DNA of 64,000 nt from NCBI GenBank assembly GCA_963788175.1, contig CAWBFZ010000006.1, positions 55,221 to 119,220 of the forward strand, in the 5' to 3' direction. The stretch's first letter is position 1. Every line of letters starts with the position of its first letter. Source of the stretch: Thermoanaerobaculia bacterium. GTDB taxonomy: Bacteria; Acidobacteriota; Thermoanaerobaculia; Multivoradales; JAGPDF01. Below the pieces are notes generated by a model, which was not told the origin of the DNA, ran no database searches, and saw nothing but the letters and a program-made list of their open reading frames with translations. The position numbers and the translations under genes were made by a program. Below are positions 11,531 through 31,985 of this stretch, piece after piece.

Positions 11531-11896
11531 TCACTCGCGCAGCGCGCGTTCCAGTTCCTGGGCCACCGCCGCGATCTCGGATTTCGCGGCGAGATGCCAA
11601 CCGCTGCGGAAGCGCTCGCGCAACAGGCGGTTGACCGCCGCGAGCGGGAGGTCCCGGGTGGCCTCCGCCAAAACCTGCCAGTCGGACTCGAGCTCTTCGA
11701 CGTCGTCGAGGTCGGCTTCGCCGATGAAGGCGTAGGCCGCCTCGGCCGCCGAGCCGAATTCGAGCTGCCAGTCCTCGTGCAGATAGCCGCCGACGAAGGC
11801 GGCGAGGCTCGGCAGGTCCTCCGGGTTCACCCGGTCGAGGAGCGCCGCGCGCGACGCGGAATCAGCGGGATCGAACCCCTCCAGGTGCCGGCTCAC
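11531..11896 (-). CDS. CdiI-like immunity protein (CdiI_4-type)
   Basis: Acidic 121-aa protein with LAAFVGGYLHEDW motif; overlaps the stop codon of the upstream RNase-like gene. Confidence 0.7.
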   Translation of the reverse strand: MSRHLEGFDPADSASRAALLDRVNPEDLPSLAAFVGGYLHEDWQLEFGSAAEAAYAFIGEADLDDVEELESDWQVLAEATRDLPLAAVNRLLRERFRSGWHLAAKSEIAAVAQELERALRE

Positions 11897-12423
11897 GGTT
11901 CCACCGGGTAGGCGGTGAGAACAAAAAAGCGCGCGCCGCGCTTGCGCAGGACGACGCGCGCGTCGGTCGCTGCGCGCGACCGGTTCTCGCCACGCAGCAG
12001 GACCTGGCCGATCGTCCGGCCGCTTTCGCCGCGGTAGTCGAGGGCAAGAGTCTCTTTGTCATGGCGCATCCAGAATGCAATGCGCTCCTGCTCGCGCGCG
12101 AGGGTCGCGCCGACCACCGCCTCGGCGGTCGCCCGGTCGGCGAAGCTCGAAGCGGCGGCGACGCCGGATTCGCGCTCGAGACGCAGGGCGAGCTCGCTCG
12201 CGCTGCGTCCGACGTGCCGCGCCAGGGCGTGCCCTCCCTGCTGCTCGTCCCACGCCAGGTCGCGCCCCGCTCTGCCGGCGGATTCGGAAACCTCCGCCCG
12301 GGCGGACCCGGAGTGGGGCGTCGGGCGCGTGGACTTGAGGACGTGCGTGCGCCAGAGGAGGATCAGCAGGATCGCGCCGAAGGCGAGCATCGCGACCAGC
12401 CTGCTCCCTGTGCGGTTCCGCAT
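11893..12423 (-). CDS. Bacterial RNase A-like (CdiA-CT-type) domain protein with N-terminal signal/anchor
   Basis: GGHALARHVG, ASSFADRATAE and C-terminal VLTAYP motifs; hydrophobic LVAMLAFGAILLILLW; ATG at 12423 (read inside the 11893..14049 ORF). Confidence 0.75.
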   Translation of the reverse strand: MRNRTGSRLVAMLAFGAILLILLWRTHVLKSTRPTPHSGSARAEVSESAGRAGRDLAWDEQQGGHALARHVGRSASELALRLERESGVAAASSFADRATAEAVVGATLAREQERIAFWMRHDKETLALDYRGESGRTIGQVLLRGENRSRAATDARVVLRKRGARFFVLTAYPVEP

Positions 12424-12434
12424 CGGAGCGGATC

Positions 12435-13788
12435 TTAGACCGAACGGGCCGCCGTTGCGGGATCGTTGCCCGCTTCGTTGCCGAACAGGACCCCGATGCT
12501 GCGCAGGAAGGGGAACGGTGGCTCGCCGCCGATCAGGACGAAGACGTAGTCGTTGTCGAGCGTGATCTCGCCCTCGGCAGTGCGGAGCCGCACCTGATCG
12601 CGACGGATCTCCAGAACCTCGGACCCGAGGAGCGGGCGGATCTTGCCGCGTTTGACGAGCTTGTCCAGAGTCTCCAGGTTCTTCGCCTTGACGCGGTCGA
12701 ATGCCTTGCCGCGATAGGAGAGGGTCAACTGGTTGCCGGCCTGCCGGGCGAGGCCCATGGCGGCCTCGATCGCGCTGTCGCCGCCGCCGACGCAGATGAT
12801 CTTCTTGCCGCGGTACTCCTCGGCGTCGCGCACCTGGTACATCACCTTCGGCAGCTGCCTCGCCGGGAACCCCGAGCTTGCGTGGCGTGCCGCGGCGGCC
12901 GAGCGCCAGCAGCACGCGGCGGGCGCGCCAGGCACCGTTGACGGTGAGGATGTGGAAGAGCCCGCCCTCCGGGATCACCTGCAGCACCTTCTGGCCGAAG
13001 AGGACCTCGAGCCGGTGCTTCTCCAGCAGGCCGCGGAAGAGCTCGAGCAGTTCCTCCTTGCTGTACTCCTGCTTGCGCAGCGGGCCGTAGAGCGGCAGAA
13101 CGACCTCTTCGGTATGGGTGAGCTTGCGGCGCGGGAAGTTGTAGATCGTTCCGCCGAGATCGCTCTGTTGTTCGAAGACGGCGTAGCGCAGGCCGCTCTC
13201 GACCGCGGTGAGCGCGGCGGCGAGACCGGCCGGGCCGGCGCCGAGGATGGCGACGTCGAGCAGCTCCGGGTCCTGGCGGACGACTCCGGCGAGGTCCGCG
13301 GCGATGGCGTGCACCGTTTCCCTGCCCTGGCGCACCGCGTTGCGGATCAGGGCGAGGCCGGCGAGCTCGCCGGCCACGTAGACGCCCGGCACGTTGGTCT
13401 CGCGTCGCTCGGTCATCCACGGCACGTCGGCGCGGCCGCGCAGGTCGCCGAGCGCGATCTCGATCGCCTGCACCGGGCAGGCCTTGGCGCAGGCGGCGAT
13501 GCCGACGCAGCGGCTCCCCTGGACGGCGACCGCCAGTCCGCCGACGATGCCCAGGACCTTCTCCGGACAGGCCGCGACGCAACCGCCGCAGCCGATGCAG
13601 ACGGCGGGGTCGATGTAGGGGAAGGCACCCATCGGCTGTTGGGGACCGTGGAGCAGCGCGGCGCCGGCGCGCTCGCGATCGCGCCGATTGCGGCGCCGGA
13701 AGGAGATCAGGTAGCCGAGCACGATCAGCGCCACGACGGCGAGGGCCGACGCCCAGATCAGAGTCCCGGTGTGCAGTACGGAGGGCAT
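12435..13788 (-). CDS. Membrane-anchored ferredoxin (two FeS motifs) fused to a TrxB-like FAD/NAD(P) oxidoreductase; one frameshift near 12857
   Basis: TM helix followed by RRRNRRDRER; CIGCGGCVAACP and CVGIAACAKACP; GAGPAG and VGGGDSA Rossmann motifs; no TrxR CxxC. Confidence 0.82.
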
Positions 13789-13790
13789 CG

Positions 13791-15690
13791 TCACAGCGGC
13801 AGGACGGCCGACTTGTGGCAGTCGGCGCAGGCACTGCCGACCGGCTTGAGGCGGGCGACCTCCTTGCCGCCGATGCGCTCCCGGAAGTGGCAGCCGACAC
13901 AGGCGACGGCGCGGTGCGCGCCCTCGAGGCGGTAGGTCGAGTCGCGATTGTGGTCGAAGCGTGAGGGGCCCCAGCTCGAGTCGCCGTGGCACTTCTCGCA
14001 GCCGGTGCCGACCTGCCCGAGATGCGGATCGGCGTGGCAGCCAGAGCACAGGAGCGGCGCCCCGGCGAGGCGGACCTCGCGCGGCGTCGCCCAGGCGCGC
14101 GCCGACGGCGGCGGCAGCACGACGGCGGCCGACGTCGGCAGCGGACGGCCCCCGGCCGGGGTCGGCAAAGGAAAGGCGCGGCCGACCTCGACTGGGGCAG
14201 GCCGCCGGCGGCCGGGCTCTTGTGGCAGCCGAGGCAGGCGACCTTGAGATGCAATCCGGCGACCGGGAACTTCGTCACGCTGTGGTCGAAGCGGATCGCG
14301 CGCCAGTCGGTGAGCGCATGACAGGCGAGGCAGCCCTCCTTCCCGAGGTACTTCTCGGTGTCGCCGGCGTGCGGATCGCGATGGCAGTCCGCGCAGTCCG
14401 ACTTCGGGAAACGGAACTGGGTGATGGCCGGCGGTCCGGTCGGCCTTGGGCGCGGGCGCGACCCGGACGAGAGCGATGCCGGCGCGTTCGAGCTCGGCGG
14501 GCGGCAGGGTGCGATGGCAGGTGGCGCACTTCGTCGTGCGATGGCTCCCCAGCAGCGGGTAGGAGGTGGCCTCGTGCAGCGCGACGGTGTAGGTCGAGGG
14601 GCGGAAACCGGAGGTCGTGTGGCACTCGCCGCACTCTCCGCCGCTCTTGCGCCGGGCGAGCTGGCCGGCGTGCGCGTCCGCGTGGCAGGAGGCGCAGCGC
14701 TCGAAGCCGGGAATCTGCCTCGGCTTGCCGGGCAGGTGGCAGGCGAGGCAGTCGGTCGCCTGGTGCTTGCCGGTGAGCGGATAGCGGGTGCGGGCGTGGT
14801 CGAAGTTGGCGCGCTGGATCCGCTTCCAGTCGTCGCTCGTGTGGCAGCTCTCGCACTTCGCCCCGAAGCGGCCCTGGTGCGGGTCCTTGTGGCAACCGGC
14901 ACAGGTGGTGGGCACGCCGCGATAGGCGACGTCCGGCGGGGCCGATCCGGCCTGCGGAGTGTCCGCAGAGCGTGGAAGATGCGGCGGGGCGGAAGTTGCG
15001 CCAGCCGGGACGGTCGGGTGGCAGCGCGCGCAGGCCACCTTGACGTGGGCGAGGGTGAGCGGGAACTTCGACTTGTCGTGGTCGAAGAGCTCGGCGGGCC
15101 GGAACTTCTTCAGCCCGTGACAGCTCGCGCAGTCGGCGGTGCCGAACTGGCCGCGATGGGCGTCCTTGTGGCAGGAGGCGCAGCGCGTCTCGAGTCCGAG
15201 GAAGGTGCGCTCGAGCTCGACGCCCTTGGCGAGAAGCGGCGCCGGGTCGGCGATCGACTGCTTGCGATGGCAGGCGCGGCACTCGAGCGGCGCGTGCGCG
15301 CCCTGCAGGGTGTAGCCGGCGAGCGCGTGGTCGAAGGCCTTCTGGCCGGCCTTGCCCCAGTAGACCAGCTCGAAGTCGCGGCCCTGATGCTCGATGTGGC
15401 AGTGCTCGCAGTCGCCGTGGTCCGGCCGGGAGTGGAGGCCTCGCCGGCGTCGATGCGCTGCTGGATCGGCGTGTGGCAGGTGAGGCAGAGCCCCCGGTCG
15501 ACGCCGCGCTTGGCGCTGTGGCAGTTGAGGCATCCGTCGCTGCCGTCGAACTTCGCATGCGCGTGGCTCAACTCGCCGGGCGAGATCTGGCCGCGCGCCG
15601 CCGGCGGCGAGAGCAGCGCGCATCCCAACCCGGCGAGGATCCCGGCGGCGGCCAGGATGCGCCCCGATGCCCGGCCGCAGCTCAGTGTCC
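13791..15690 (-). CDS. Exported multiheme cytochrome c, 20 CXXCH; frameshifted near 15440 and 14440
   Basis: Signal-like ILAAAGILAGLGCALLSPPAARG; 20 CXXCH counted across frames; FDH..FPL.G.H and CH.D.H.G repeats; exact start unclear. Confidence 0.85.
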
Positions 15691-16553
15691 GATCCCCGCG
15701 TAACCGGTCATCCAGGCGACGCCGATGTGCACCACCATGAAGAGATACATGACGACGGCGAACGGCTTGTGGAAGACGTGCCAGTAGTGGAAGAGCTCGC
15801 GCACTCTCTGCCACAGCAGGATGCGGCGGTGGAGGCGCACCTTGTGGGTCGCCAGGAGCTCGAACCGGCGGCGCAGACGCCGATCGACCGCCGGGAAATC
15901 GCGCCGGAAACGGCGCAGCCGGAAGCGCAGCGCCAGGGCGTCGTAGGGAAATCGGAGGACCATGCCGAAGAGGGACTGTTTGGCGCCGGTACCGATCTCC
16001 GCCACGGCATCGAGTTGCCGGATCGCATCGGCATCGAGGCCGACCTCGTCCATCAGCTGGCGGGCAAGCTCCTGGTCGAGCTTCTCGACCTCGGCCAGCG
16101 ACAGCTCGTCACCGGCGTTCGAGTGTGGAATCTGGCGGTACAGGTACCGCCCGGCGACGCCGCTCGAGGCGACCGCGACCATCGACCAGAAAGAGAGCGC
16201 GACCAGGCCCTGCACCTTGAAGGAGCTGTGGAGGAGGATGAAGAGAGGACCGCACAGGCCGAGCAGAATGTGAAAGTCGAGCCAGTCGCTGACCGGTCCC
16301 AGACGGCGCAGGAGGGCGAAGCGCTTGCGCACCGAGTAGAGCAGCATGACGATCATCATCGCCGCGCCGACGATGCCGAAGGCGAGGCCCCACGAGCCTC
16401 CCGGCTTGAGCTGCCAGTAGAGCGGGTGGCGCGGCCGTTCGGCGAGCGGCGTCAGGTAGTAGGGCAGTCCCTGCGAGCCGCGAACCAGGCGAGGCTGCCG
16501 AGAAACAGCACATAGAGGCCAACGAGCACGAGCCGCTGGGGGGCGACCTTCAC
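15682..16553 (-). CDS. Inner-membrane protein with paired TM histidines (ferric-reductase/cytochrome b-like); frameshift near 16470
   Basis: About 5 TM segments with WLDFHILLG, ILLHSSFK, HYWHVFHKPF and MVVHIG; GTG at 16553. Confidence 0.65.
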
Positions 16554-16554
16554 T

Positions 16555-17849
16555 TCACTTCGCTCCGCTCTCCAGGGTGATGGTGACCGGCGTGCCGGAG
16601 AAGCGCCTGCGACCGCGGCGGTCGAGATCGCCGGGCTCCTTGGTCGAGGCGTTGCCGTCGCCGTCGAGGCTGACCGAGAGGTTGCCCTTCGAGCGGCAGG
16701 GGCTGACCCATCATGCTGTCGTCGACGGAAAGGGTCAGCTCGAGCGGGAAGGTCGGATTCGAGATCCGCTTGACCGCGGCCGGCGGCCCCGGCGTGTCGC
16801 CGCGCAGGGCGACGAAGAGGGTCGCCCGACTGCCCGCCGCACCGCGCGGCGCGACCGTCCCCGGCGCGAGCTCGATGTGCAGGCGATAGGCGCCGCCGCC
16901 TGCGGCCGCCGCCGCGGGGGACTGGGCGGCAGCCGGAGGGGCCGCGCCGGCCATCGCGATGGCTCCGGCGCCGCCGGCGCCGCCGCCCGCCTCGACTTCC
17001 GCCAGCAGCTCCTCGATCGGCGGGAAGTTGCCGCCGGCCGCCGCCAGGCCCTTCTTCCAGGTCGCGATCGCCTGCGGCATCTGGCCGAGAGCGGCCTCCG
17101 CCTGGCCCTTCGCCAGCGAGGCCAGGAGGTGGTCGGGATGCTGCGCGAGGACGCCGTCCATGAGCTGCACGGTGAGCGGCCACTGGCCCATGGCCAGGCG
17201 CACCACGCCTTCGACGAAGAGGCCGTCCGGATCGTTGGGCGGCCTGCTTCTGCAGCTCTCTCGCCTGCTCGAAGGCCTCCATCAGGAGGTTGGCGTTGAG
17301 CAGCGCGACGGTGAGCTGGCGGCGCGCCTGGAGGTCCTGCGGCGCCGCCTGGACCTGCGCGCGAAACTGCTCGAGCTGCGCCGCGACTTCCGGGGTGAGC
17401 TCGGCGCTCTCGTCGTGGGCGGCTGCGGCGGCCTCGGGCGAGGCGGCGGGCGCGGCCGCGAGCCATTTGAGCCATCGGAGCCATCGGAGCCATCGGGGCC
17501 GTCGGAGCCATCTGCGCCGTCGGCGACATCGCAGCGGTACCCGCGCCCATCTCGTCCTTCGGTCGCGAGCCCACGGTGGCCCAGTAGATCGAGGCCGCCG
17601 ATGACGAGGCAGCTGGCGACTCCGAAGAGGAATCCGACCAGCCCCGACCGCCGTTCGGAGGTCGCCGGTCCGGCGGTGGTGCCCGGCCCAGCGGCCGAGA
17701 CAGCGTCCGGCGCGCCGGCACCAGATCCTTCGGAGGGCAGGCCTGTCGCGCTGCCCAGCGGGCTCTCGCTGCTTGCCCCGCAAAGCGAACCAGAGACCTG
17801 CGGCAAGGCCCACGGCGACGACGATCAGACCAGGAATCCAGACGTTCAT
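16555..17849 (-). CDS. ccmI: CcmI/CycH-like TPR cytochrome c maturation protein; several frameshifts
   Basis: N-terminal TM, TPR-like helices (PQDLQARRQLTVALL; PNDPDGLFVEG), C-terminal ATLFVALR...PPAAVKRI...FPLELTLSVDDSMM domain; follows ccmH with an ATGA overlap. Confidence 0.7.
17461..17530. repeat. 9-bp tandem repeat encoding Met-Ala-Pro repeats in ccmI
   Basis: GAGCCATCG x3 plus degenerate copies; minus strand reads MSPTAQMAPTAPMAPMAPMAQMA. Confidence 0.75.
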
Positions 17850-18352
17850 GACGGTTTCGAATCCTCCTGCGGGGTGGAAGTTGGGGGCGCCGGGCGCTGC
17901 GGCCGCAGGCGGAAGAAGATCATCAGCGCGCCGGCGGCGAACGCCAGCATCGGCATCAGCCAGACCATCCAGTTGAAGCCCTCCGCCTTGGGCTCGAGGC
18001 GGATGAACTCGCCGTAGGAGCGCTCGAACGCGGCGATCACCTGGTCCTCGGAGTAGCCGAGGGAGAGCATGCGACGGACCTCGGCCTTGAGGTCGACCGC
18101 CGAGGAGGACGGCGAGTCGGCCACCGACAGGCCCTGGCAGACCGGGCAGCGCATCAGGGAGGAGACCTCCTCCGTGGCGCGGTCGAGCGCCGCGCCGGCG
18201 AGCGGCGGCCCGAGCGGCGCCGGTCCTGGCCCGGCGCGGCGGGCGCTCTGTGCGCTGACGGCAAGCGGCGTCAGAACGACCACCAGGGCAGCAGCAGCGA
18301 CGAGCGCCGTGAGGCACGCGCCGCGGCGCGACAGCTTCGGGAGAGAGTTCAC
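17846..18352 (-). CDS. ccmH: Cytochrome c biogenesis protein CcmH
   Basis: MRCPVCQGLSVADS, YGEFIRLEP, WMVWLMP. Confidence 0.92.
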   Translation of the reverse strand: MNSLPKLSRRGACLTALVAAAALVVVLTPLAVSAQSARRAGPGPAPLGPPLAGAALDRATEEVSSLMRCPVCQGLSVADSPSSSAVDLKAEVRRMLSLGYSEDQVIAAFERSYGEFIRLEPKAEGFNWMVWLMPMLAFAAGALMIFFRLRPQRPAPPTSTPQEDSKPS

Positions 18353-18863
18353 AGCATCGCCTCCAGCGAGCGGGTCAGACCGTCGAAGCTCACCATGCCG
18401 GTGACCTTCTCGTGGACGATGCCCCGGGCGTCGATGAGGAAGGTCTCGGGCACGCCGTAGACGCCGAACCGAATGGCGGTGCGCGAGTCGGGGTCGACCA
18501 GCGCCGGGCCCCAGACTGCCGCGCTGGCGTTCGTAGGCGCGGATCGCCTCGCGGCGTGTCCTGGTAGATCACGCTCACGAACCGCGCCCGCCCGGCGTAG
18601 CGGCGCGCCAGGGCGGCGAAGATCGGATTCTCCGCGGCGCACGGCTGGCACCAGGTCGCCCAGAAGTTGACCACCACCGGCTGCCCGCGCAGGTCCGCGA
18701 GCCGGAGCGTCCGTCCCTCGAGGTCGCTCAGAGCGAACTCCGGCGCCGGCTGGCCGATGAGCGGCGAGATCACCTCGCGCGGGTCGTGGCGCAGGCCCGA
18801 GGCCAGCATGACGAGCAGCGGGGCGACCAGGATCAGGCCGATGAGCAGGACCTTGCGGTTCAT
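18349..18863 (-). CDS. ccmG: CcmG/DsbE thiol-disulfide oxidoreductase; frameshift near 18550
   Basis: VVNFWATWCQPC, GVYGVPETFLID, N-terminal TM. Confidence 0.9.
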
Positions 18864-20853: not shown

Positions 20854-21349
20854 CGGGGATCTCCGGATGCGGAGGGCTCGAGCGTCTCGGCGAGCTCTTT
20901 GACCGTTCGAGAGTCGCCCTTGCCGGGCGCCTGGTACTCGTTGTCGTGCTTGATCATCAGGCGGTCGGTGCGCGAACGTTCCGTCGGCCTGCAGCGCGCC
21001 TTCGACGACCACGCCGATCCCTTCGCGGAACATCGCCGGCGGCACCGCCGTGCGTCGAGACGGCGACCGTCTCCGTGCCGTCGGTCATCTTGAACTGGAG
21101 ACCGAGGCCGCCCTCGCCGGTCTCGATCGAGCCCGGCGCGACCAGGCCGCCGAGGCGGATGGTGGCGCCTTCGGCCTTGCCGCCGTGGGCGCGCAGCTCG
21201 GTCGGGCTCCAGTAGTAGACCAGGCTCTTGCCGAGGCCGCCCAGGGCGAGAAATCCGAAGGTCCCGGCGGCGATGAGGATGGCGACGAGGGCGAGCAGCC
21301 GGTGCCGCCGGACTTCGGCGCGCGCCTTGTTCGAGGATTCGATCGTCAT
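20850..21349 (-). CDS. ccmE: Heme chaperone CcmE; frameshifted
   Basis: LVYYWSPTE, IRLGGLV, PPAMFREGIGVVVEG, MIKHDNEY heme-binding H-x3-Y. Confidence 0.9.
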
Positions 21350-21483
21350 GACTTGCCCTCCTTCTGATGCTGCTGTCGCGTGCGCCGGATCAGGCTCCAG
21401 GCGTAGAGGACCAGGCCGACGGCGGTGATGCTGTAGGCGGCGATGACGAAGTTCCATCCGCCGAGGATGACTCCCTCAGGCAT
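21346..21483 (-). CDS. ccmD: Heme exporter protein CcmD (45 aa, not in the ORF track)
   Basis: MPEGVILGGWNFVIAAYSITAVGLVLYAWSLIRRTRQQHQKEGKS between ccmC and ccmE, overlapping both; single TM plus basic tail. Confidence 0.82.
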   Translation of the reverse strand: MPEGVILGGWNFVIAAYSITAVGLVLYAWSLIRRTRQQHQKEGKS

Positions 21484-22174: not shown

Positions 22175-22177
22175 GGT

Positions 22178-23719: not shown

Positions 23720-26094
23720 CTAGAGCCGGTAGCCGAGCTGGAGGAAGAGCCGCTCGCCTTCGAGGTCGTCGCCGGTGGCCGATTCGAGCTCGCCGAGCAG
23801 GTAGAAGCGCCGGCCGAGCTGGAGCGTGCCGGAAAGGCGCAGCCACTGGTTCTCGCGCACCTCGCCCGTGGCGAGGAGCTCGGTGCTGGAGATGCCGAAG
23901 GTGAGCTCGACGTCGTGGCCGCTGCGGAAGTACTTCTGGACCCGCAGGCCGGCGCGGAAGCCGCTCGAGGTGTCGCCGTCGAAACCCGAGTAGTCGCCGC
24001 CGACGAGCATGTTCCAGCCGAAGACGTTGCTGTGGTAGACGTTGGCGTTGTAGGCGAGGCTGCGGTCGGGGTTGCCCTGCTTCCAGCGCTGGCCGACCGA
24101 GAAGTTGGCGCGCACCGTCTTCGCCGAGCCGAGGTAGGCCGTCACCCGATAGCCCTCGCGCAGCGCGTTGTCGAACAGCTCTTCGGGCGTGAAGCGGTCG
24201 TCAAGGGTGAAGATCTGGCGCGACTGGTCGTAGCTCACGCCGAGGCGCACCGCCTTGGAGACGCTGTAGCTGCCGGAGAACAGGACGTTGCTCAGCTGAC
24301 TGTTGTTGGCGGCCGGATTGTCGCGCCAGTTGTGGCCGAGGTCGAACTCGGCGCGCTCGTAGAGCGACCAGCGGCTGCCGGAGCCCTGCCGGCCGTAGAA
24401 CGACAGGTACTCCCGGTTGGTATCGCCCCCGAGGTAGTCGCCGATCGCCTCGAAGCAGGTACTCGGCGTAGAAGGGCTTCCCGGGCGACTGGTCGAGCCA
24501 GTGCACGAAGGCGCCGTAGGCGCGGCCCGGGCTGGCGAAGTTGATCTGGTCGCCGTTCGAGCGCGAGCCGTAGAACGCTCCGAGACTGAAGCGCCGGGTG
24601 GCGTGGAACTCGCCGACTCCGCCGTCGAGATAGTCGAAGCCGACGAGCGGCCCGGAGATCAGCCGGCCGACCTGGTAGGTGAAGCGTGCCTCGGGCGGCT
24701 CGTAGGAGAGGGTCGCTTCGTAGAGGCGGTCGTTGTCGCGCGACTCCGACCTGCCGGAGGAGAGCTGGATCTGCTCGCGGCTGGCGGTGCCGCGCAGCCG
24801 GAAGTCGAACTTGCTGCCGCCGATGTGGCCGGCGTAGATGTTGACCAGAGCCGACTCCTGGTTGAAGTCGCGCCCGGCCGGACCGCCATCCTTGAAGCCC
24901 TGGTAACGCAGCGCCAGCGACCCGGAATAGTCGGTGTGTTCGGCGGGGTTCCAGCCCGGCGGCTTGCCCTTCTGGCCCGGCACGACCGGCGCGCCGGTCG
25001 GTGCGCCGGCGCTGCCGGCACCGGCCGGGAGCGCGGCCGAGGGCGGCAGCGGACCCGGGATGACGAGATCACCGACGGCGATCGTCTCCGTCGCCGCGAC
25101 GATCTTGCACGAGGCCGAGTGGCTGGCGATGAAGGCGATCTCGAGCTCGGCGATCTCGGAGGTCGCGCCGGTCGCGGCGTCGGTGCGCCGCACCTTGACG
25201 CGCTGGCCGACCGCCAGGCCCGGCGCTGCGGCCGGCGTCGAGGAAGACCTCTTCGGCGAGCACCTGGCGCACCCGGATCGGTTGCGCCACGGCGGGCTCG
25301 CCCGGTACTGGGCGGCGGGCGTTGCCGGCAGCGGTCGGGGTTGCGGCAATCGCCGGCTCCGTCACCGGCGCCGGCGGCGGCGGCGGGACTTCGAGCCGCC
25401 GAACGCGGTCTCCCTGGGTGATCGGGCGCACTTCGCGATCGATCCGGCAGGTCGCCGAGTGCTCGCCGACCAGCAGGACCTCGAGCTCGCCGATGACCAG
25501 GCTGCCGCGCTCCACCACGAGGCGATCGCCGACCGCCACCGGCTGCGAGGAGACCAGCGAGATGTCGACCGCACCGCGCAGCACGCGCTGCACGATCATC
25601 GTCTGGTTGCTCGGGTGCTCGCCCGCGTCGTCGGGCCTGGAGGCGACTGGGTGGCGGCGGGCAGAGCGCCTGGCGACGGCGATCGGAGCGGCCGGAGCGC
25701 GCAGCGGTCGCCGCGGCCGAGGGCTTTGCCCGCCGCGCGCGGGCGCACCAGATCGCCGCCGGCGATCGCGCGCCGTCATGCGCTCGATCCGGCACGAAGC
25801 CTCGTGGTTCGCCGACGATGGTGACCTCGAGATCGGCGAGCTTGACGCCGTCGCGCTCCACGGACGAGGCGATCGCCGACCGCGAGTCGCCGCGTGCCCG
25901 GTACGTCGATGTCGACCCGCCCGGCGACGACGCGCGCGACGGTCATCGGCGGCGCGCTGTCGGGGGACTGCCGCGGCGGAAGCCAAGCCGGATGCGAACA
26001 GAGGACCAGAGCGAGGGTCGCCAGGATCGAGAATCGGAGTCGGACGCCGGCCGCTCTGCGCAGAGGCGGCCGAGAAATTCATGGAATCAGTCAT
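23720..26094 (-). CDS. Outer-membrane beta-barrel (porin-like) with three tandem N-terminal beta-domains; frameshifted
   Basis: Signal-like FSILATLALVLCSHPAW; three similar ~70-aa domains; Pro/Ala linkers; long amphipathic beta region ending LFLQLGYRL (aromatic beta-signal). Confidence 0.75.
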
Positions 26095-26129
26095 CAGGTT
26101 CAGTGGTCTCTCTTGTCGTTCGCTGCGGC

Positions 26130-29100
26130 CTAGGCCGACCCGCGCGGGTGACACTGGTAGCAGGCGTGGCTCTCGTAGAGGTAGCCGCCGACCTCGTTGT
26201 GGTCGTTGTTGGTCTCGCTCTGGCTGTGTTCGTGACAGAGGATGCACTCGAAGTTGTTGAAGTTCCCGGCGCTCACGTGGCACGAGGCGCAGGGGAGCTG
26301 GTGGCGGCCCGAAGCGATCGGGAAGCAGGTCGTTGTGATTGAAGGTCGACGGCTCCCAGGCGGTCGTGCTGTGGCAGCTCTCGCAGGTGGTCGGGAAGCC
26401 GGCGCTCTGGTGGTCGGGGTCGTTGGTGCCGTTGTAGTCGCTCTGATGGCAGGCGAAGCACAGGGTGGGCGTGCCGGAGTAGCCGCCGGAATGGCAGTCG
26501 AGGCAGGCCGCGCCGGCGTGCGCGCCGGTGAGCGGGAAACCGGTGGCGCTGTGGTTGAAGCTCGCCGGCTGCCAGGCGGTGTCGGAGTGGCAGTCCTGGC
26601 AGGTGTGCGGGAAGCCGGTGTGACTCGGGTTGTTGGCGCCGTTGAAGTCGGACTGATGACAGGAGAAGCAGGCCGACGGCGTGCCCGGCGTAGCCGCCGC
26701 TGTGACAGTCGAGACAGGACGCGGCCAGGTGGGCGCCGTGCAGCGGGAAGCCGGTGGCGCTGTGATTGAAGCTCGCCGGCTGCCAGGCGGAGACGCCGTG
26801 GCAGTCCTGGCAGCTGTGCGGGAAGCCGGTGTGGCTCGGGTTGTTGGCGCCGTTGAAGTCGGACTGGTGACAGGAGAAGCAGTCGGTCGGCGTTCCGGCG
26901 TAGCCGCCGCTGTGGCAGTCGAGGCAGGAGGCGGCCTGGTGCGCGCCGTTGAGCGGGAAGCCGGTCGCGTTGTGGTTGAAGCTCGCCGGCTGCCAGGCGG
27001 CGACGCCGTGGCAGTCCTGGCAGGTGTGCGGGAAGCCGGTGTGACTCGGGTTGTTGGCGCCGTTGTAGTCGGACTGGTGACACGAGAAGCAGTCGGACGG
27101 CGTTCCGGCATAGCCGTTCTGGTGGCAGGCGGTGCAGGAAGCGCCGAGCGGTGGGCGCCGTTGAGCGGGAAGCCGGTGGCGTTGTGGTCGAAGCTCGCCG
27201 GCTGCCAGGCGGTGACGCCGTGGCAGTCCTGACAGCTGTGCGGGAAGCCGGCTGTGGCTCGGATTGTTGGCGCCGGTGTAGTCGGTCTGATGACAGGAGA
27301 AGCAGTCGGAGGGCGTCCCGGCGTAGCCGTTCTGGTGACAGTGAGGTGCAGGAGGCCGAGCGATGGGCGCCGTTCAACTGGAAGCCGGTGGCGTTGTGGT
27401 CGAAGCTCGCCGGCTGCCAGGCGGAGACGCCGTGGCAGTCCTGGCAGGAGTGCGGGAAGCCGCTGTGGCTCGGATTGCTGGCGCCGGTGAAGTCGGTCTG
27501 ATGGCAGGAGAAGCAGTCGGAGGGCGTGCCGGCGTAGCCGTTGCGGTGGCAGGAGGTGCAGGAGGCCGAGCGATGGGCGCCGTTCAGCTGGAAGCCGGTG
27601 GAGTTGTGGTCGAAGTTGGCCGGCTGCCAGGCGGAGACGCCGTGGCAGTCCTGGCAGGATGTGCGGGAAGCCGCTGTGGCTCGGATTGCTGGCGCCGGTG
27701 AAGTCGGTCTGATGACAGGAGAAGCAGTCGGAGGGCGTGCCGGCGTAGCCGTTGCGGTGACAGGAGGTGCAGGAGGCCGAGCGATGGGCGCCGTTCAGCG
27801 GGAAGCCGGTGGAGTTGTGGTCGAAGTTGGCCGGCTGCCAGGCGGAGACGCCGTGGCAGTCCTGGCAGGTGTTCGGGAAACCGGTGTGGCTCGGATTGCT
27901 GGCGCCGGTGAAGTCGGTCTGATGGCAGGAGAAGCAGTCCGAGGGCGTGCCGGCGTAGCCGTTGCGGTGACAGGAGGTGCAGGAGGCCGAGCGATGGGCG
28001 CCGTTCAGCTGGAAGCCGGTGGAGTTGTGGTCGAAGTTGGCCGGCTGCCAGGCGGAGACGCCGTGGCAGTCCTGGCAGGTGTTCGGGAAGCCGCTGTGGC
28101 TCGGATTGCTGGCGCCGGTGAAGTCGGTCTGATGGCAGGAGAAGCAGTCCGAGGGCGTGCCGGCGTAGCCGTTGCGATGGCAGGAGGTGCAGGAGGCCGA
28201 GCGGTGGGCGCCGTTCAGCGGGAAGTCGGTGGAGTTGTGATCGAAGGTGGCCGGCTGCCAGGCGGAGACGCCGTGGCAGTCCTGGCAGCTGTTGGGGAAG
28301 CCGCTGTGGCTCGGATTGCTGGCGCCGGTGAAGTCGGTCTGGTGGCAGGAGAAGCAGTCCGAGGGCGTGCCGGCGTAGCCCGATGCGATGACAGGAGGTG
28401 CAGGAGGCCGAGCGATGGGCGCCGTTCAACTGGAAGCCGGTCGCGTTGTGGTCGAAGCTGGCCGGCTGCCAGGCGGAGACGCCGTGGCAGTCCTGGCAGG
28501 AGTTGGGGAAGCCGCTGTGGCTCGGGTTGCTGGCGCCGGTGAAGTCGCTCTGATGACAGGAGAAGCACTCACTGGGCGTTCCGGCGTAGCCCGTGCGATG
28601 GCAGGAGGTGCAGGAGGCCGAGCGATGGGCGCCGTTCAACTGGAAGCCGGTCGCGTTGTGGTCGAAGGTCGCCGGCTGCCAGGCGGAGACGCCGTGGCAG
28701 TCCTGGCAGGAGTTGGGGAAGCCGCTGTGACTCGGGTTGCTGGCGCCGGTGAAGTCGCTCTGATGGCAGGAGAAGCAGTCGGTGGGCGTGCCGGCGTAGC
28801 CGTTGCGGTGGCAGCTCGCGCAGTCGGTGGAGCGGTGGGCACCGTTCAACTGGAAGCCGGTGGAGTTGTGGTCGAAGAGCGCCGGCTGCCAGGCGGTGAC
28901 GCCGTGGCACTCGCGACAGGTGATGGGGAAGCCGGCATGCACCGGGTTGCGGGCGCTGGTGAAGTCGGTCTGGTGGCAGGAGAAGCACTCGATCGGCGTG
29001 CCGGCGTAGCCGGTGCGATGGCAGGTCGTGCAATCGACCGTGCGGTGGGCGCCGAGGAGCTGGAAGCCGGTCTGGTTGTGATCGAAGGTCGCCGGCTGCC

Positions 29101-29744
29101 AGGCAGAGACGCCGTGGCAGTCCTGGCAAGTCGTGGCGAACCCGGCATGCACGGGGTTGCGCGCCCTGGTGAAGTCCTTCTGGTGACAGGTAAAGCAGTC
29201 GGTCGGGGTCGCGGTGTAGCCGTTGCGGTGACAGGAGACGCAGTCGACCGAGCGATGGGCGCCGTTGAGCTGGAAGGTGGTCTGATTGTGGTCGAAGGTC
29301 GCCGGTTGCCAGGCTGCACACGCCGTGACAGTTCTTGCACGCGGTCGGGAACCCGGCGTGGCTCGGGCGGGTGGCGCGGATGAACGCCGGCTCGTGACAG
29401 GCGAAGCAGTCGGCCTTGGCCTTGGCCGTCGGCGAAGTCGAGGGTCGCGTGGCAGGACTTGCAGGTGGCGTCGGCGTGCGCGCCGGCGAGGTCGAAGCCG
29501 GTCGTCGCGTGTTTCCACGGCAGCGGCGACCGGAGCGGCGTCCAGCCCTCCATCGAATGGCATTCGGCGCACGCGGTCGCCGAGCGCGCCGTGCGGGCTC
29601 GCCGAACCCCCTTGCGCGCGCCAGCGGCGCCGGGACGCCGAGCGCAGCGAAGGCAGCCAGGATGGGCACCAGCCAAAGGCCGGCTTGCACGAAGTGCCGA
29701 GGTCCTGCGCGATGGCGAAAGCCGCACGCGATGCATCCGGGCAT
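26130..29744 (-). CDS. Giant repeat multiheme cytochrome c, about 49 CXXCH; several frameshifts
   Basis: Signal peptide, 4 N-terminal hemes, 14 units of 70 aa x 3 CXXCH, 3-heme C-terminal cap ending CYQCHPRGSA. Confidence 0.88.
26356..29308. repeat. Coding tandem repeat, ~210-bp unit x14
   Basis: GCCAGGC anchor recurs at 26571, 26782, 26992, 27204, 27416, 27626, 27837, 28047, 28257, 28468, 28678, 28888, 29098 and 29308 (variant near 26356). Confidence 0.92.
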
Positions 29745-29851
29745 CCTCTCGCATACGCGATGAGCTTCCTGTGAACACGACCATCCTCCAGCTGTTGAGA
29801 ATTGCCAGAGTTATGAACCAGAGATGAACGAGAGCGCGAGCTGCCGCGCGC

Positions 29852-31985
29852 TCACTCACGGCCGCGCGGGTGACACTGGTAGCAGGCCCGACTCTCGTAG
29901 ACGTAGCCGCCGACCCCCCGGTGCTCGGGATTGGTCTCACCCTGGCTGTGCTCGTGACAGAGGATGCACTCGAAGACGTTGTAGTTTCCCGCCGCCACGT
30001 GACAGGAAGAGCAGGGGAGCTGATGGCGCCCTGAAGCGATCGGGAAAGAGCTCTCGTGATTGAACGTCGCCGGCGTCCAGGCGTTCGTGCCGTGGCAGTC
30101 GGCGCAACTGGTCCCGAATCCGGCGCTGGCGTGATTGGGATTGCGGGTCCCGTTGTAGTCGCTCTGATGGCAGGCGAAGCAGTCGGACGGTGTTCCGGAG
30201 TAGCCGTTGCGGTGGCAGGTGGTGCAGGCGAGCGAGCGGTGCGCGCCGGTGAGCTGGAAGCCGGTCGTGTTGTGGTCGAAGCTCGCGGGCTGCCAGGCGG
30301 TGACGCTGTGGCAGTTCTGGCAGGTCGTCGGGAAGCCGGAGTGGCTCGGGTTCGAAGCCGCCGTTGTAGTCGCTCTGATGGCAGGACAGACAGTCGGATG
30401 GCGTGCCGGCGTAGCCGTTGCGGTGACAGGTGGTGCAGGCGACCGAGCGGTGCGCTCCGTTCAGCTGGAAGCCGGTCGTGTTGTGGTCGAAGGTCGCGGG
30501 CTGCCAGGCGGTCGCGCTGTGACAGTTCTGGCAGGTGGTCGGGAAGCCGGCGTGGCTCGGGTTGCGGGCGCCGGTGTAGTCGCTCTGATGGCAGGCGAAA
30601 CAGTCGGCGGCGGTGCCGGCATAGCCGTTGCGGTGGCAGGAGGTGCAGGCGACCGAGCGATGCGCACCGCTCAACTGGAAACCGGTCGCGTTGTGGTCGA
30701 AGGTCGCGGGCTGCCAGGCGGTCGAGCTGTGGCAGCTCTGGCAGGTGGTCGGGAAGCCGGAATGGCTCGGATTGCGGGCACCGTTGTAAGCGGCTTGATG
30801 ACAGGCGAAACAGTCCGCCGGGGTGCCGGCGTAGCCGTTCGCATGGCAGGAGGTGCAGGGGGCCGAGCGGTGCGCGCCGGCGAGCTGGAAGCCGGTCGCG
30901 TCGTGGTTGAAGGTCGCCGGCTGCCAGGCGGTGACGCTGTGGCAGTCCTGGCAGGTGTTGGGGAAACCGCTGTGGCGCGGGTTGCTGGCGCCGTTGTAGT
31001 CGCTCTGGTGGCAGGAGAAGCAGTCCGTGGGAGTGCCGGCGTAGCCCGTGCGGTGACAGTTGACGCAGCTGGTGGAGCGATGTGCCCCGCTGAGCGGGAA
31101 GCCCGAGCTGTCGTGATCGAAGAGCGCCGGTTGCCAGGCGGTGAAGCTGTGGCATTCGCGGCAGGTGACGGGGAAGCCGGCGTGCACCGGGTTGCGGGCG
31201 CTGGTGAAGTCGGTCTGGTGGCACGACAGGCACTCGACCGGCGTGCCGGCGTAGCCGGTGCGGTGACAGAGCGTGCACTCGACCGTGCGGTGGGCGCCGA
31301 GGAGCTGGAATCCGGTCTGGTTGTGGTCGAAGACCGCCGGCGACCAGGCGGAGACGCCGTGACAGTCCGCACAGCTGGTGGAGAAGCCGGCGTGGGAAGG
31401 ATTCCGGGCGCTCGCGAAGTCCTTCTGATGGCAGGTGAAGCACTCGGTTGGCGTCGCCGTATAGCCGGCGCGATGACAGGCGACGCAGTCGACGGTGCGA
31501 TGGGCGCCGTTCAACTGGAAGGTGGTTCGGTTGTGATCGAAGGTGGCCGGCTGCCAGGCGGCGACGCCGTGGCAGGACTTGCAGGTGGTCGGGAAGCCCG
31601 CGTGGGCGGGTCGGGTGGCGCGGGTGAAGGCCGGCTCGTGGCAGGCGTAGCAGTCGGTCTTGCCCTTTTCTCTGGCGAAGTCGAGCGTCGCATGGCAACT
31701 CTTGCAGGCGATGGCGGAGTGTCCGCCGGCGAGATCGAAGCCGGTTTCCGAGTGCCTGTAGGGCAGCGGCGACTTGAGCGGAGACCAGCCCTCGGTGGAG
31801 TGGCAGTCGGTGCATTCGTTCTTGAGGGCGCCGTGCGGATTCGCCGAGCGCGCCTGCCCCGCGACCGGAGCCGCGCGCAAGAGAAGGAGGAAGGCGAGTC
31901 CTGCACCGTAGGTGGCGAGTCGCAGCGGCTGGGTCGCAACGAGCCACGGCGGCATTCGCGACCGCAAGGTCTCCAAAGAAGCCAT
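29852..31985 (-). CDS. Repeat multiheme cytochrome c, 28 CXXCH; frameshift near 30355
   Basis: Signal peptide, 4 N-terminal hemes, 7 units x 3 CXXCH, 3-heme cap ending CYQCHPRGRE; start may be 31985 or 31955. Confidence 0.9.
30075..31555. repeat. Coding tandem repeat, ~210-bp unit x7
   Basis: AWQP/AWSP/AWTP-ATFDH junctions roughly every 210 bp. Confidence 0.88.

What the first reader, a model, noticed from the sequence alone, without database searches (positions are those of the whole stretch)
12435..16553. Inner-membrane module: His-paired membrane protein, 20-heme cytochrome and anchored FeS-flavoprotein
Seen: the membrane protein has His in TM segments (DFH, LLH, WHVFH, VVH). The flavoprotein has a TM helix followed by a basic patch (cytoplasmic C-terminus by the positive-inside rule), one canonical 4Fe-4S motif, a second motif lacking a Cys (CVGIAAC, possibly 3Fe-4S), two Rossmann motifs and no TrxR CxxC. 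Inference: a quinone-independent, NOX/ferric-reductase-like transmembrane electron path feeding the periplasmic 20-heme cytochrome.
Basis: partly seen in the sequence, partly recalled or inferred. Interest (0 to 1): 0.7.

Follow-up and report, generated by a model that had tools for sequence, protein, structure and literature searches.

The report
NAD(P)H-fed input module of PCC3 wire
Three neighbouring genes encode a probable two-heme membrane protein, a 20-heme periplasmic cytochrome and a membrane-anchored iron-sulfur flavoprotein. They look like the inner-membrane end of the published but untested "PCC3" electron conduit, possibly fed from cytoplasmic NAD(P)H rather than quinones, and in this assembly five sequencing-type frameshifts break them.

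Summary
The three genes are real. However, they read as single proteins only after stitching across five frameshifts. Short-read contigs from four independent sludge metagenomes and a 95%-identical relative correct each one, so these are assembly errors, not pseudogenes.

The membrane protein meets every published sequence signature of the PCC3 "conserved inner membrane protein" (He et al. 2017). It has about 290 aa, 5 TM helices, SGxxG on TM4 and Wx3Hx13H on TM3 and TM5. All four His are invariant. It sits next to a 20-heme cytochrome.

The third gene is not in the published PCC3 descriptions. It has a TM anchor, a ferredoxin domain whose second cluster site has only three Cys, and a TrxR/YpdA-fold FAD/NAD(P) domain without a redox CxxC. 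It co-occurs with the membrane protein in 18 of 18 related genomes and in 41 of 42 full-length loci from several phyla. In eight loci it is fused in frame, through a second TM helix, to a 16-34-heme cytochrome. That fusion places the flavoprotein in the cytoplasm.

Best reading: a split, NOX-like NAD(P)H-to-cytochrome electron exporter. Cofactors, donor, direction and quinone independence are all untested. I rate it a new variant of a known kind.

The parts
15682..16553 (-). PCC3-type inner membrane protein (IMP). About 289 aa, 5 TM helices, candidate di-heme b. Frame broken by a 2-base excess near 16471-16478.
   Evidence: Three-frame translation. The intact 289-aa ORF exists in G010. The 2 extra bases are removed in contigs of 4 DNA runs and 1 RNA run. 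There are 1725 homologues. H94, H108, H261, H275, W90, W257 and S130-G131-x2-G134 are invariant. The AF2 model has pLDDT 84, with TM helices at 5-27, 53-69, 87-109, 116-139 and 247-282.
16228..16284 (-). TM3 motif WLDFH-x13-H. His94 is towards the cytoplasm and His108 towards the periplasm.
   Evidence: The motif is defined in He et al. 2017.
15727..15783 (-). TM5 motif WHVFH-x13-H (His261 and His275). It is preceded by two further invariant His, H255 and H258.
13791..15690 (-). Periplasmic 20-heme cytochrome c with a Sec-type signal peptide. The frame is broken at about 15438-15445, 14440-14442 and 14179. The start codon is uncertain.
   Evidence: 20 CxxCH in the stitched window pieces and in the intact G010 ORF. 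Pfam Cytochrome_C7, Cytochrom_c3_2 and Paired_CXXCH_1 match. The indels are corrected in independent contigs. No canonical start codon lies near the signal peptide.
12435..13788 (-). Membrane-anchored FeS flavoprotein of about 450 aa. It has an N-terminal TM helix, a basic patch, a ferredoxin domain and a TrxR/YpdA-fold FAD/NAD(P) domain. The frame is broken by 1 extra base at 12856-12858.
   Evidence: Pfam Pyr_redox_3, Pyr_redox_2 and several Fer4 families are above cut-off. The closest solved relatives are YpdA/Bdr 7a7b (3e-30) and TrxR-type FNR 3ab1. Foldseek gives 7apr at 2.9e-22. The extra base is absent in 4 of 4 DNA runs. The start ATG lies 2 nt after the cytochrome stop.
13474..13599 (-). 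Ferredoxin domain. Site 1 is CIGCGGCVAACP, with all Cys. Site 2 is CVGIAACAKACP, where the second ligand position is Ile.
   Evidence: Site 1 is invariant. The site 2 position is His in 36, Ile in 15 and Cys in 0 of 53 homologues.
23720..31985 (-). Context: the outer part of the same conduit. It comprises a beta-barrel outer-membrane protein and two giant repeat cytochromes. The ccm genes at about 16555-23580 separate it from the module.
   Evidence: A tblastn hit of the Calditrichia operon's barrel protein lands at 23723-24427. There are 76 CxxCH on the minus strand between 26 and 32 kb. The boundaries come from earlier notes and I only partly checked them.

Best explanation
The three genes form the inner-membrane input of a PCC3-type porin-cytochrome conduit. 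I think it works as a split, NOX-like transmembrane electron exporter.

Proposed path:
1. NAD(P)H is oxidised at the FAD of the TrxR/YpdA-fold flavoprotein, which its N-terminal helix holds on the cytoplasmic face. An invariant SYR after the GGGDSA strand hints at NADPH.
2. Electrons pass singly through the fused ferredoxin domain. One cluster is an all-Cys [4Fe-4S]. The other has three Cys plus Ile in this lineage, which suggests a 3Fe-4S type. In most homologues that position is His.
3. Electrons reach the cytoplasm-side heme b of the 5-TM protein (His94/His261). They then cross to the periplasm-side heme b (His108/His275).
4. They enter the 20-heme periplasmic cytochrome and continue to the barrel protein and giant cytochromes encoded upstream.

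Such a path would pump no protons. It would spend membrane potential, so it would act as an electron outlet for redox balance or for reduction of outside acceptors, not as a coupling site.

What is shown:
- Gene content, motifs and conservation.
- Tight synteny across phyla.
- The flavoprotein-cytochrome fusion and the membrane topology it implies.
- Low-level transcripts.

What is inferred:
- Every cofactor.
- The donor.
- The direction of flow.
- The bypass of quinones.
For: Module unity:
- IMP and flavoprotein co-occur in 18 of 18 related genomes, and both are absent together from the rest.
- Among 42 loci with 8 kb flanks, IMP is in 42, the 20-heme cytochrome in 42, the flavoprotein in 41 and the barrel in 41.
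- In Calditrichia, Ignavibacteria and Zixibacteria the five genes form one compact operon.
- In this window the flavoprotein ATG lies 2 nt after the cytochrome stop.

Topology:
- A basic patch follows the anchor helix.
- Eight loci encode one ORF running flavoprotein, basic linker, hydrophobic helix, then 16-34 c-hemes. Pfam confirms Fer4, Pyr_redox_3 and cytochrome domains in that one protein. Gene callers recorded it as one 1293-aa protein on two contigs.
- c-Heme domains mature in the periplasm, so the flavin domain must be cytoplasmic.

Di-heme b:
- There are two Wx3Hx13H motifs on parallel helices TM3 and TM5, and all four His are invariant.
- Weak but consistent matches point to two-heme cytochrome b families: DUF4405 in 23 of 26 members, Ferric_reduct in 19 of 26 and Ni_hydr_CYTB in 12 of 26.
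- He et al. 2017 made the same proposal.

NAD(P)H input:
- Both dinucleotide motifs are invariant.
- The closest solved relatives are NADPH-dependent YpdA and TrxR-type ferredoxin-NADP reductases.
- There is no CxxC, and YpdA's active Cys is Ala here.

Paralogue:
- A paralogous system pairs another Hx13H membrane protein with another TrxR-like FeS flavoprotein and a cytochrome.

Expression:
- Metatranscriptome contigs at 97-98% identity cover parts of all three genes.
Against: - No biochemical data exist for any member.
- Ferric_reduct scores 16.9 bits against a cut-off of 28.
- A profile search of PDB sequences finds nothing.
- Foldseek with the pLDDT-84 model finds no related fold at E below 0.001.
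- The ferredoxin domain of the flavoprotein model has pLDDT below 50.
- Published PCC3 clusters of Fe(II)-oxidising Proteobacteria are described as four genes without a flavoprotein. They are modelled as inward, quinone-linked conduits.
- NAD(P)H as donor makes sense only for outward flow.
- This genome also has NapC/NirT-type quinol dehydrogenase candidates elsewhere.
- RNA contigs may include DNA carry-over.
Confidence: 0.55

Rival explanations
1. This is the quinone-linked cytochrome b model of He et al. 2017. The IMP exchanges electrons with the quinone pool, as NarI/HydC-type or bc1 cytochromes b do. The flavoprotein is then a second, optional input, or it serves regulation, repair or redox poising and is not the main donor.
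For: This is the published model for PCC3 and PCC4 IMPs. The canonical proteobacterial PCC3 is described without a flavoprotein. There are weak matches to Ni_hydr_CYTB, a quinone-reactive family. A recent paper's title reports an unexpected ubiquinone cofactor in the FRD-type protein MsrQ. I saw only the title and the start of the abstract.
Against: The flavoprotein is linked almost one-to-one with the IMP across phyla and is fused to a conduit cytochrome. That is hard to square with an accessory role. No quinone-site motif has been identified, and I did not look for one. The IMP's closest motif match, with 13-residue His spacing on TM3 and TM5, is to NOX-type proteins, which take electrons from a cytoplasmic flavin.
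Confidence: 0.2
2. The same wire runs inward. Electrons taken up from low-potential outside donors, such as cathodic minerals, a partner cell or H2-charged surfaces, pass through the c-hemes and the two b-hemes to the FeS flavoprotein. The flavoprotein then reduces NAD(P)+ or another cytoplasmic acceptor.
For: PCC3 was discovered in Fe(II) oxidisers and is modelled as an uptake route. From general knowledge, TrxR-type FNRs are reversible. No catalytic domain fixes a direction.
Against: Moving electrons inward against an inside-negative potential, and then up to about -320 mV, needs a very low-potential donor. Fe(II) cannot do this (inference). The host lineage consists of sludge and sediment Thermoanaerobaculia, with no evidence of lithotrophy gathered here.
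Confidence: 0.15
3. The locus is decaying. The frameshifts are real, and the three genes are pseudogenes in this organism.
For: There are five frame-changing indels in 4.1 kb of the deposited sequence.
Against: Each indel is corrected in contigs of four independent short-read DNA runs at 95-99% identity. Two are also corrected in RNA contigs. Neighbouring ccm genes are broken in the same way. Relatives have intact genes.
Confidence: 0.03

Closest known systems
PCC3 porin-cytochrome c gene cluster and its 'conserved inner membrane protein' (He, Barco, Emerson and Roden 2017, PMC5566968; Hoover et al. 2023, PMC10734462)
   Same: The IMP is about 300 aa with 5 TM helices, SGxxG on TM4 and two Wx3Hx13H motifs. 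It is adjacent to a periplasmic cytochrome of about 21 hemes, and a barrel protein and giant repeat cytochromes lie in the same region. A di-heme b role was already proposed.
   Different: Published clusters have four genes and no flavoprotein. They are modelled as quinone-linked uptake routes in Fe(II)-oxidising Proteobacteria. Here, and in Acidobacteriota, Calditrichia, Ignavibacteria and Zixibacteria, a TM-anchored FeS flavoprotein is a near-constant fifth gene, and ccm genes split the cluster. I did not test sequence homology to the type proteobacterial IMPs.
[quoted passage not shown] 2017, Supplementary Table 6)
   Same: The table lists the same kind of trio, with redox proteins of 412-425, 608-702 and 796-805 aa. 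The 796-805 aa class matches the paralogous cNMP-TrxR-like-FeS protein that I found next to an IMP-like gene in L103.
   Different: The table does not name or analyse the redox protein. Those clusters lack a porin and were judged unlikely to serve extracellular transfer. No NAD(P)H-fed model was drawn.
NADPH oxidase / ferric reductase (NOX, FRE; bacterial SpNOX)
   Same: Two bis-His hemes b are stacked across the membrane on TM3 and TM5, with His spacing of about 13. They are fed from a cytoplasmic NAD(P)H flavoprotein that follows an out-to-in TM helix. Here that helix is the flavoprotein's own anchor.
   Different: The system is split into two polypeptides. The IMP has five TM helices, not six. 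The dehydrogenase has a TrxR fold plus a ferredoxin domain, not an FNR-like FAD/NADPH domain. The acceptor is a multiheme cytochrome, not O2 or Fe(III). The Pfam threshold is not met and no fold match was found.
MsrQ (YedZ) with the cytosolic flavin reductase Fre feeding periplasmic MsrP, described as a two-component NOX-like system in E. coli (own knowledge; listed among papers)
   Same: It is a bacterial heme-b membrane protein of the ferric-reductase superfamily. It takes electrons from a separate cytoplasmic NAD(P)H flavoprotein and passes them to a periplasmic redox protein.
   Different: Fre is soluble and has no FeS. The partner is a molybdoenzyme. Quinones are also implicated for MsrQ.
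YpdA/Bdr bacillithiol disulfide reductase and TrxR-type ferredoxin-NADP+ reductases (PDB 7a7b, 7apr, 3ab1, 3lzw)
   Same: They share the two-dinucleotide-domain fold. Phmmer gives 3e-30 and Foldseek 2.9e-22. They use NADPH and lack the TrxR CxxC.
   Different: This protein adds a TM anchor and a fused ferredoxin domain. YpdA's Cys in GGGPCG is Ala here. The C-terminal FAD-binding segment (ETNVPGxYVAGE) appears to have moved in front of GxGxxG. The NCBIfam YpdA score is 172, against a cut-off of 340.
Hmc/Tmc complexes of sulfate reducers (own knowledge)
   Same: They combine a periplasmic multiheme cytochrome, a membrane cytochrome b and a cytoplasmic FeS protein for quinone-independent transmembrane electron transfer.
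   Different: The protein families are unrelated. The cytoplasmic partner is a CCG-type FeS protein that acts on DsrC, not a pyridine-nucleotide flavoprotein.

Membership tests
PCC3-type inner membrane protein (He et al. 2017) | About 300 aa with five predicted TM helices | tested here: met
   289 aa in intact relatives. The AF2 model has helices at 5-27, 53-69, 87-109, 116-139 and 247-282.
PCC3-type inner membrane protein (He et al. 2017) | Two Wx3Hx13H motifs on TM3 and TM5, and SGxxG on TM4 | tested here: met
   WLDFH-x13-H, WHVFH-x13-H and SSGVAG are present. All the key residues are invariant in 26 homologues.
PCC3-type inner membrane protein (He et al. 2017) | Encoded with a periplasmic cytochrome of about 21 hemes, a porin and a very large multiheme cytochrome | tested here: met
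   A 20-heme gene lies directly downstream. A barrel homologue is at 23723-24427, and 76 CxxCH lie between 26 and 32 kb. The same set occurs in 41 of 42 loci.
PCC3-type inner membrane protein (He et al. 2017) | Sequence homology to the type IMPs of Sideroxydans or Leptothrix | not tested
The paper's supplements hold gene IDs only.
Ferric reductase transmembrane domain (Pfam PF01794; NOX/FRE/STEAP/MsrQ) | Match above Pfam's gathering score | tested here: not met
   16.9 bits against a cut-off of 28. 19 of 26 homologues match weakly, with a best E of 0.001. DUF4405 matches 23 of 26, with a best E of 1.2e-5.
Ferric reductase transmembrane domain (Pfam PF01794; NOX/FRE/STEAP/MsrQ) | Six TM helices, with His pairs on TM3 and TM5 spaced 13 and 12 apart | tested here: inconclusive
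   The His pairs are on TM3 and TM5 with 13/13 spacing, but there are only five TM helices. The flavoprotein's anchor helix could supply a sixth in trans; this is an inference.
Ferric reductase transmembrane domain (Pfam PF01794; NOX/FRE/STEAP/MsrQ) | Fold similarity to solved NOX, STEAP or DUOX membrane domains | tested here: not met
   Foldseek against PDB gave no match at E <= 0.001 and a best E of 0.49. The profile search of PDB sequences gave only noise. The long cytoplasmic helical insert may mask a partial match.
Ferric reductase transmembrane domain (Pfam PF01794; NOX/FRE/STEAP/MsrQ) | Binds two hemes b | not testable with these tools
   This needs a pyridine hemochrome assay or spectra on expressed protein.
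TrxR-fold two-dinucleotide flavoproteins (Pyr_redox_2/3; YpdA, TrxR-type FNR) | FAD GxGxxG and NAD(P)H GxGxxA motifs, Pfam match and fold match | tested here: met
   GAGPAG and GGGDSA are invariant. Pyr_redox_3 scores 67 and 64 bits on the two pieces against a cut-off of 30. Foldseek gives 7apr at 2.9e-22.
Thioredoxin reductase proper | Redox-active CxxC in the NADPH domain | tested here: not met
   The only Cys outside the ferredoxin domain is the single Cys in IICVGGG. TIGR01292 scores 77 against a cut-off of 343.
YpdA/Bdr bacillithiol disulfide reductase | Equivalog score, and the conserved Cys in GGGPCG | tested here: not met
   TIGR04018 scores 172 against a cut-off of 340. The aligned position is Ala in GAGPAG.
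2x[4Fe-4S] bacterial ferredoxin domain | Two CxxCxxCxxxCP motifs (eight Cys) | tested here: not met
   Seven Cys are present. In motif 2 the second Cys is replaced by Ile here, by His in 36 of 53 homologues, and never by Cys. The Pfam Fer4 families are still matched.

The most novel reading that the evidence does not exclude
The IMP-flavoprotein pair may be the general cytoplasmic entry point of PCC3-like conduits outside the Proteobacteria. It would be a previously unrecognised, quinone-independent NAD(P)H:multiheme-cytochrome oxidoreductase. It would be built like an NADPH oxidase split between TM5 and TM6, with a TrxR-fold dehydrogenase and an FeS relay in place of the FNR-like domain. With the 20-heme cytochrome, the barrel and the giant cytochromes, it would wire cytoplasmic pyridine nucleotides to the cell exterior without touching the quinone pool. 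The fused variants of up to 1300 aa would be single polypeptides that carry FAD and FeS in the cytoplasm and up to 34 c-hemes in the periplasm.
Probability: 0.45. Interest if true: 0.8.

Novelty: new variant of a known kind. Interest (0 to 1): 0.6.

Why it matters
Known routes for extracellular electron transfer in Gram-negative bacteria, such as CymA, ImcH, CbcL and CbcBA, all start from quinols. A route that draws directly on NAD(P)H would be a different bioenergetic design. It would be a non-conserving electron outlet that lets fermentative or oxygen-limited cells dump reducing power on minerals, humics or partner cells.

It would also change how PCC3-type clusters are read in metagenomes. 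They are currently used as markers of iron oxidation. The IMP family is large, with 3,991 clusters at 50% identity at E <= 0.001. The module occurs in lineages that are abundant in wastewater sludge, soils and sediments. It is also compact, at five genes plus heme maturation, which makes it attractive for wiring cells to electrodes.

The fused flavoprotein-cytochrome proteins give a ready experimental handle on topology.

Tried and rejected
- **Foldseek of the IMP model against PDB:** no meaningful match. The model is all-helical with a 110-residue cytoplasmic insert, so this is weak negative evidence.
- **Profile search of PDB sequences with the IMP alignment:** only coiled-coil noise.
- **NCBIfam scan:** no family for the IMP.
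- **Python tblastn on genome loci:** my first attempt failed because I looked for one file per locus; the loci are stored many to a file.
- **Pseudogene reading:** rejected after laying contigs.
- **Long homologues as IMP fusions:** P0218, P0239, P0241, P0255 and P0257, from the representative search, were checked. P0241 and P0255 combine a partial IMP with partial cytochrome or flavoprotein pieces. I judged them gene-calling chimeras from frame errors, not evidence.
- **Literature searches for an earlier description of the flavoprotein partner:**, plus readings, found none. The only trace is the unnamed 'other redox protein' column in He et al.'s Supplementary Table 6.
- **OetABI of syntrophic sulfate reducers:** checked and found unrelated, because OetI is a porin.
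- **Absence of quinol dehydrogenases as an argument for quinone independence:** not usable, because the genome has NapC/NirT-family hits elsewhere.
- **His-His distances:** model coordinates are not exposed, so they could not be measured.

Full report
**What is there.** The window has about 70% G+C. Between 16553 and 12435 the minus strand carries three co-directional genes. Pfam annotates the pieces as follows:
- a membrane protein with only a sub-threshold Ferric_reduct match (E 0.0067);
- a cytochrome matching Cytochrome_C7, Cytochrom_c3_2 and Paired_CXXCH_1;
- a protein with 4Fe-4S ferredoxin families followed by Pyr_redox_3/Pyr_redox_2.

The cytochrome has exactly 20 CxxCH, plus 22 further His, which is enough for bis-His ligation throughout. 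Directly downstream lie an RNase_A_bac toxin-like gene and a CdiI_2 immunity-like gene.

**The frames are broken, but by assembly error.** None of the three genes is a single ORF here.
- I aligned the region to the 95%-identical relative G010, where all three are intact ORFs.
- The alignment shows frame-changing indels at about 16471 (+2), 15441 (-1), 14440 (+1) and 12856 (+1). It also shows an 83-nt extra segment at 14113.
- I laid contigs from four independent wastewater and sludge DNA runs on the region. They carry the correcting indel at every site, and they add one base at 14179. That makes the extra segment an in-frame 84-nt linker insertion.
- Metatranscriptome contigs also lack the errors at 14442 and 16475/16477.
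- The neighbouring ccmF/ccmG genes are broken in the same way.

The pseudogene reading is therefore rejected.

**The membrane protein.**
- It has 1725 homologues at E <= 0.001 in the word-indexed search. The named ones are 'hypothetical protein' from Thermoanaerobaculia and other MAGs.
- A profile search of 1.84 billion representatives finds 3,991 clusters at E <= 0.001 and 646 at E <= 1e-30.
- In 26 homologues down to 53% identity, these residues are invariant: H94, H108, H261, H275, W90, W257, S130, G131 and G134. Three further His are also invariant, namely H42, H255 and H258.
- The AlphaFold model (pLDDT 84) has five TM helices. A 110-residue, Arg-rich helical insert lies between TM4 and TM5.
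- By the positive-inside rule the N-terminus and the insert are cytoplasmic. TM3 and TM5 then run in parallel. H94/H261 would hold a cytoplasm-side heme and H108/H275 a periplasm-side heme. This is an inference.

This is exactly the signature that He et al. (2017) published for the 'conserved inner membrane protein' of PCC3 and PCC4 clusters. They likened it to the ferric-reductase domain and proposed that it binds two hemes b.

Family membership beyond the motif is weak:
- Ferric_reduct, DUF4405 and Ni_hydr_CYTB match many members, but all below the curated cut-offs.
- PDB sequence and fold searches find nothing.

**The flavoprotein.** After an N-terminal TM helix and the basic patch RRRNRRDRER comes a ferredoxin domain.
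- Its first motif, CxxCxxCxxxCP, is invariant.
- In its second motif the second Cys is replaced by Ile in the window's clade (15 of 53). It is His in 36 of 53 homologues and never Cys.
The commoner state suggests a His-ligated cluster, possibly the exit cluster. This is an inference.

The rest of the protein has the TrxR fold.
- The best solved relatives are the NADPH-dependent YpdA/Bdr and TrxR-type ferredoxin-NADP reductases.
- It lacks the TrxR CxxC, and YpdA's Cys is Ala here. It fails the NCBIfam equivalog cut-offs for both.
- The segment ETNVPGVYVAGE aligns with YpdA's C-terminal FAD-binding segment, yet it lies before GAGPAG. It is modelled with pLDDT above 90. This suggests a circular permutation that places the ferredoxin domain next to the flavin.
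- The ferredoxin domain itself is poorly modelled.

**Linkage.**
- Among 41 related genomes, the 18 that have the IMP orthologue also have the flavoprotein orthologue. Wherever the contig allows, it lies about 1.8-2.5 kb away on the same strand. The other genomes lack both.
- A scan of GTDB species genomes returned 80 loci. They come from Thermoanaerobaculia, Vicinamibacteria, Holophagales, Calditrichia (including Caldithrix abyssi), Ignavibacteria, Zixibacteria and a Polyangiaceae MAG.
- Of the 42 loci with 8 kb on both sides, all have the 20-heme cytochrome directly after the IMP. 41 have the flavoprotein and 41 have a barrel protein of about 540 aa. In the one exception the locus ends at the barrel gene.
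- In lower-GC phyla the operon reads IMP, 20-heme cytochrome, giant cytochrome (21-58 hemes), barrel, flavoprotein.

**A natural fusion fixes the topology.** In eight loci of a sister clade the flavoprotein ORF has no stop. It continues through a basic linker and a hydrophobic helix into a cytochrome domain with 16-34 CxxCH.
- One example is L072:10543-14421, with 1293 aa and 34 hemes.
- Pfam finds Fer4, Pyr_redox_3 and cytochrome c domains in that one protein.
- It is on record as a single called protein on two contigs.
- c-Heme attachment happens in the periplasm, so the flavin/FeS domain must be cytoplasmic and the N-terminus outside.

This agrees with the charge pattern. It also ties the flavoprotein physically to the conduit's cytochromes.

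**A paralogous theme.** In the same order, a second system pairs three genes:
- an IMP-like protein with two Hx13H motifs;
- a 798-aa protein combining a TrxR-like domain, two cNMP-binding domains and FeS;
- an FHA-TM-multiheme cytochrome.

Its sizes match the 796-805 aa 'other redox protein' entries in He et al.'s Supplementary Table 6. That table also lists redox proteins of 412-425 aa beside short IMPs in Gallionella, Dechloromonas and Leptothrix. So the co-occurrence of Hx13H proteins with a cytoplasmic redox protein was tabulated in 2017. It was not named or built into a model, and it was not reported for PCC3 itself. Further searches of the held library found no description of the flavoprotein partner.

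**Mechanism.** The best-supported reading is a split NOX-like exporter. The path would run from NAD(P)H to FAD, through two FeS clusters, to the inner heme b, to the outer heme b, to the 20 c-hemes, and then to the barrel and giant cytochromes.
- The flavoprotein's out-to-in anchor helix followed by a cytoplasmic dehydrogenase mirrors NOX TM6 plus its dehydrogenase domain. The protein families differ.
- From general bioenergetics, outward electron movement with the proton left inside spends membrane potential. The module would therefore be an outlet for reducing power and not a coupling site.
- The same argument makes inward flow from Fe(II) to NAD(P)+ implausible.
- Transcripts of all three genes are detectable at low depth in a wastewater metatranscriptome. 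DNA carry-over is a caveat.

**Limits.**
- All cofactors, the donor, the direction and the independence from quinones are inferred.
- The genome has NapC/NirT-type candidates elsewhere, so quinol-fed routes are not excluded.
- I could not fetch proteobacterial PCC3 sequences to test direct homology or to ask whether those genomes hide the flavoprotein elsewhere.
- Earlier notes of this scan reach the same reading in at least 13 other genomes. They are unchecked AI notes and I do not count them as support.

**Verdict.** The membrane protein and cytochrome are known PCC3 parts. The constant flavoprotein partner, its three-Cys cluster site and the flavoprotein-cytochrome fusion make this a new variant of a known kind that deserves a biochemical test.

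Noticed in passing
L072:10543-14421 (also L055, L068, L070, L071, L073, L080, L094): In a sister clade the FeS flavoprotein is fused in frame to a 16-34-heme cytochrome c domain, through a basic linker and a second TM helix. The ORFs are 858-1300 aa. Such a polypeptide would carry FAD and FeS in the cytoplasm and c-hemes in the periplasm.
   Followed up: yes
window 11531-12423 (minus strand): A 176-aa RNase_A_bac (CdiA-CT-like) toxin gene starts 11 nt after the flavoprotein stop. A CdiI_2-like immunity gene follows it. The pair holds the same position in close relatives (L013, L014, L024, L026, L067).
   Followed up: partly
L103:4331-9355 (G026:C24): This is a paralogous three-gene system. It has a 798-aa protein combining a TrxR-like domain, two cNMP-binding domains and a multi-cluster FeS domain. 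It also has a 276-aa Hx13H/Hx13H membrane protein and an FHA-TM-multiheme cytochrome. The sizes match unnamed entries in He et al. 2017, Supplementary Table 6.
   Followed up: partly
window 13474-13509; alignment of 53 homologues: In the second FeS motif, the position of the missing Cys is His in 36 homologues, Ile in 15, Val in 1, Gly in 1 and never Cys. The Ile type includes the window's clade, a Polyangiaceae locus and a 'Multivoradales' locus.
   Followed up: partly
window 13366-13401: ETNVPGVYVAGE resembles the C-terminal FAD-binding segment of YpdA/TrxR, yet it lies N-terminal to the GxGxxG motif. This suggests a circular permutation of the TrxR fold.
   Followed up: partly
window 15590-15814: No ATG, GTG or TTG lies between the IMP stop (15684-15682) and the cytochrome's signal peptide. 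The nearest in-frame GTG is at 15814, inside the IMP gene. G010 shows the same situation.
   Followed up: no
window 14113-14195: The cytochrome carries an insertion of about 84 nt (28 aa) in a linker relative to G010. It is polymorphic among strains: some sludge contigs skip 61 nt and carry 5 other letters at 14159-14221.
   Followed up: partly
window 16555-21045: The ccm genes (ccmF, ccmG, ccmH/I region) also change frame repeatedly. RNA contigs drop single bases at 16604, 16611 and 16624. Indel errors therefore look pervasive in this assembly.
   Followed up: partly
IMP alignment A1 (P0001 numbering): Besides the four heme-ligand candidates, three further His are invariant. H42 lies in the periplasmic loop RPRH. 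H255 and H258 lie at the cytoplasmic end of TM5 (HYWHVFH). Their role is unknown.
   Followed up: no
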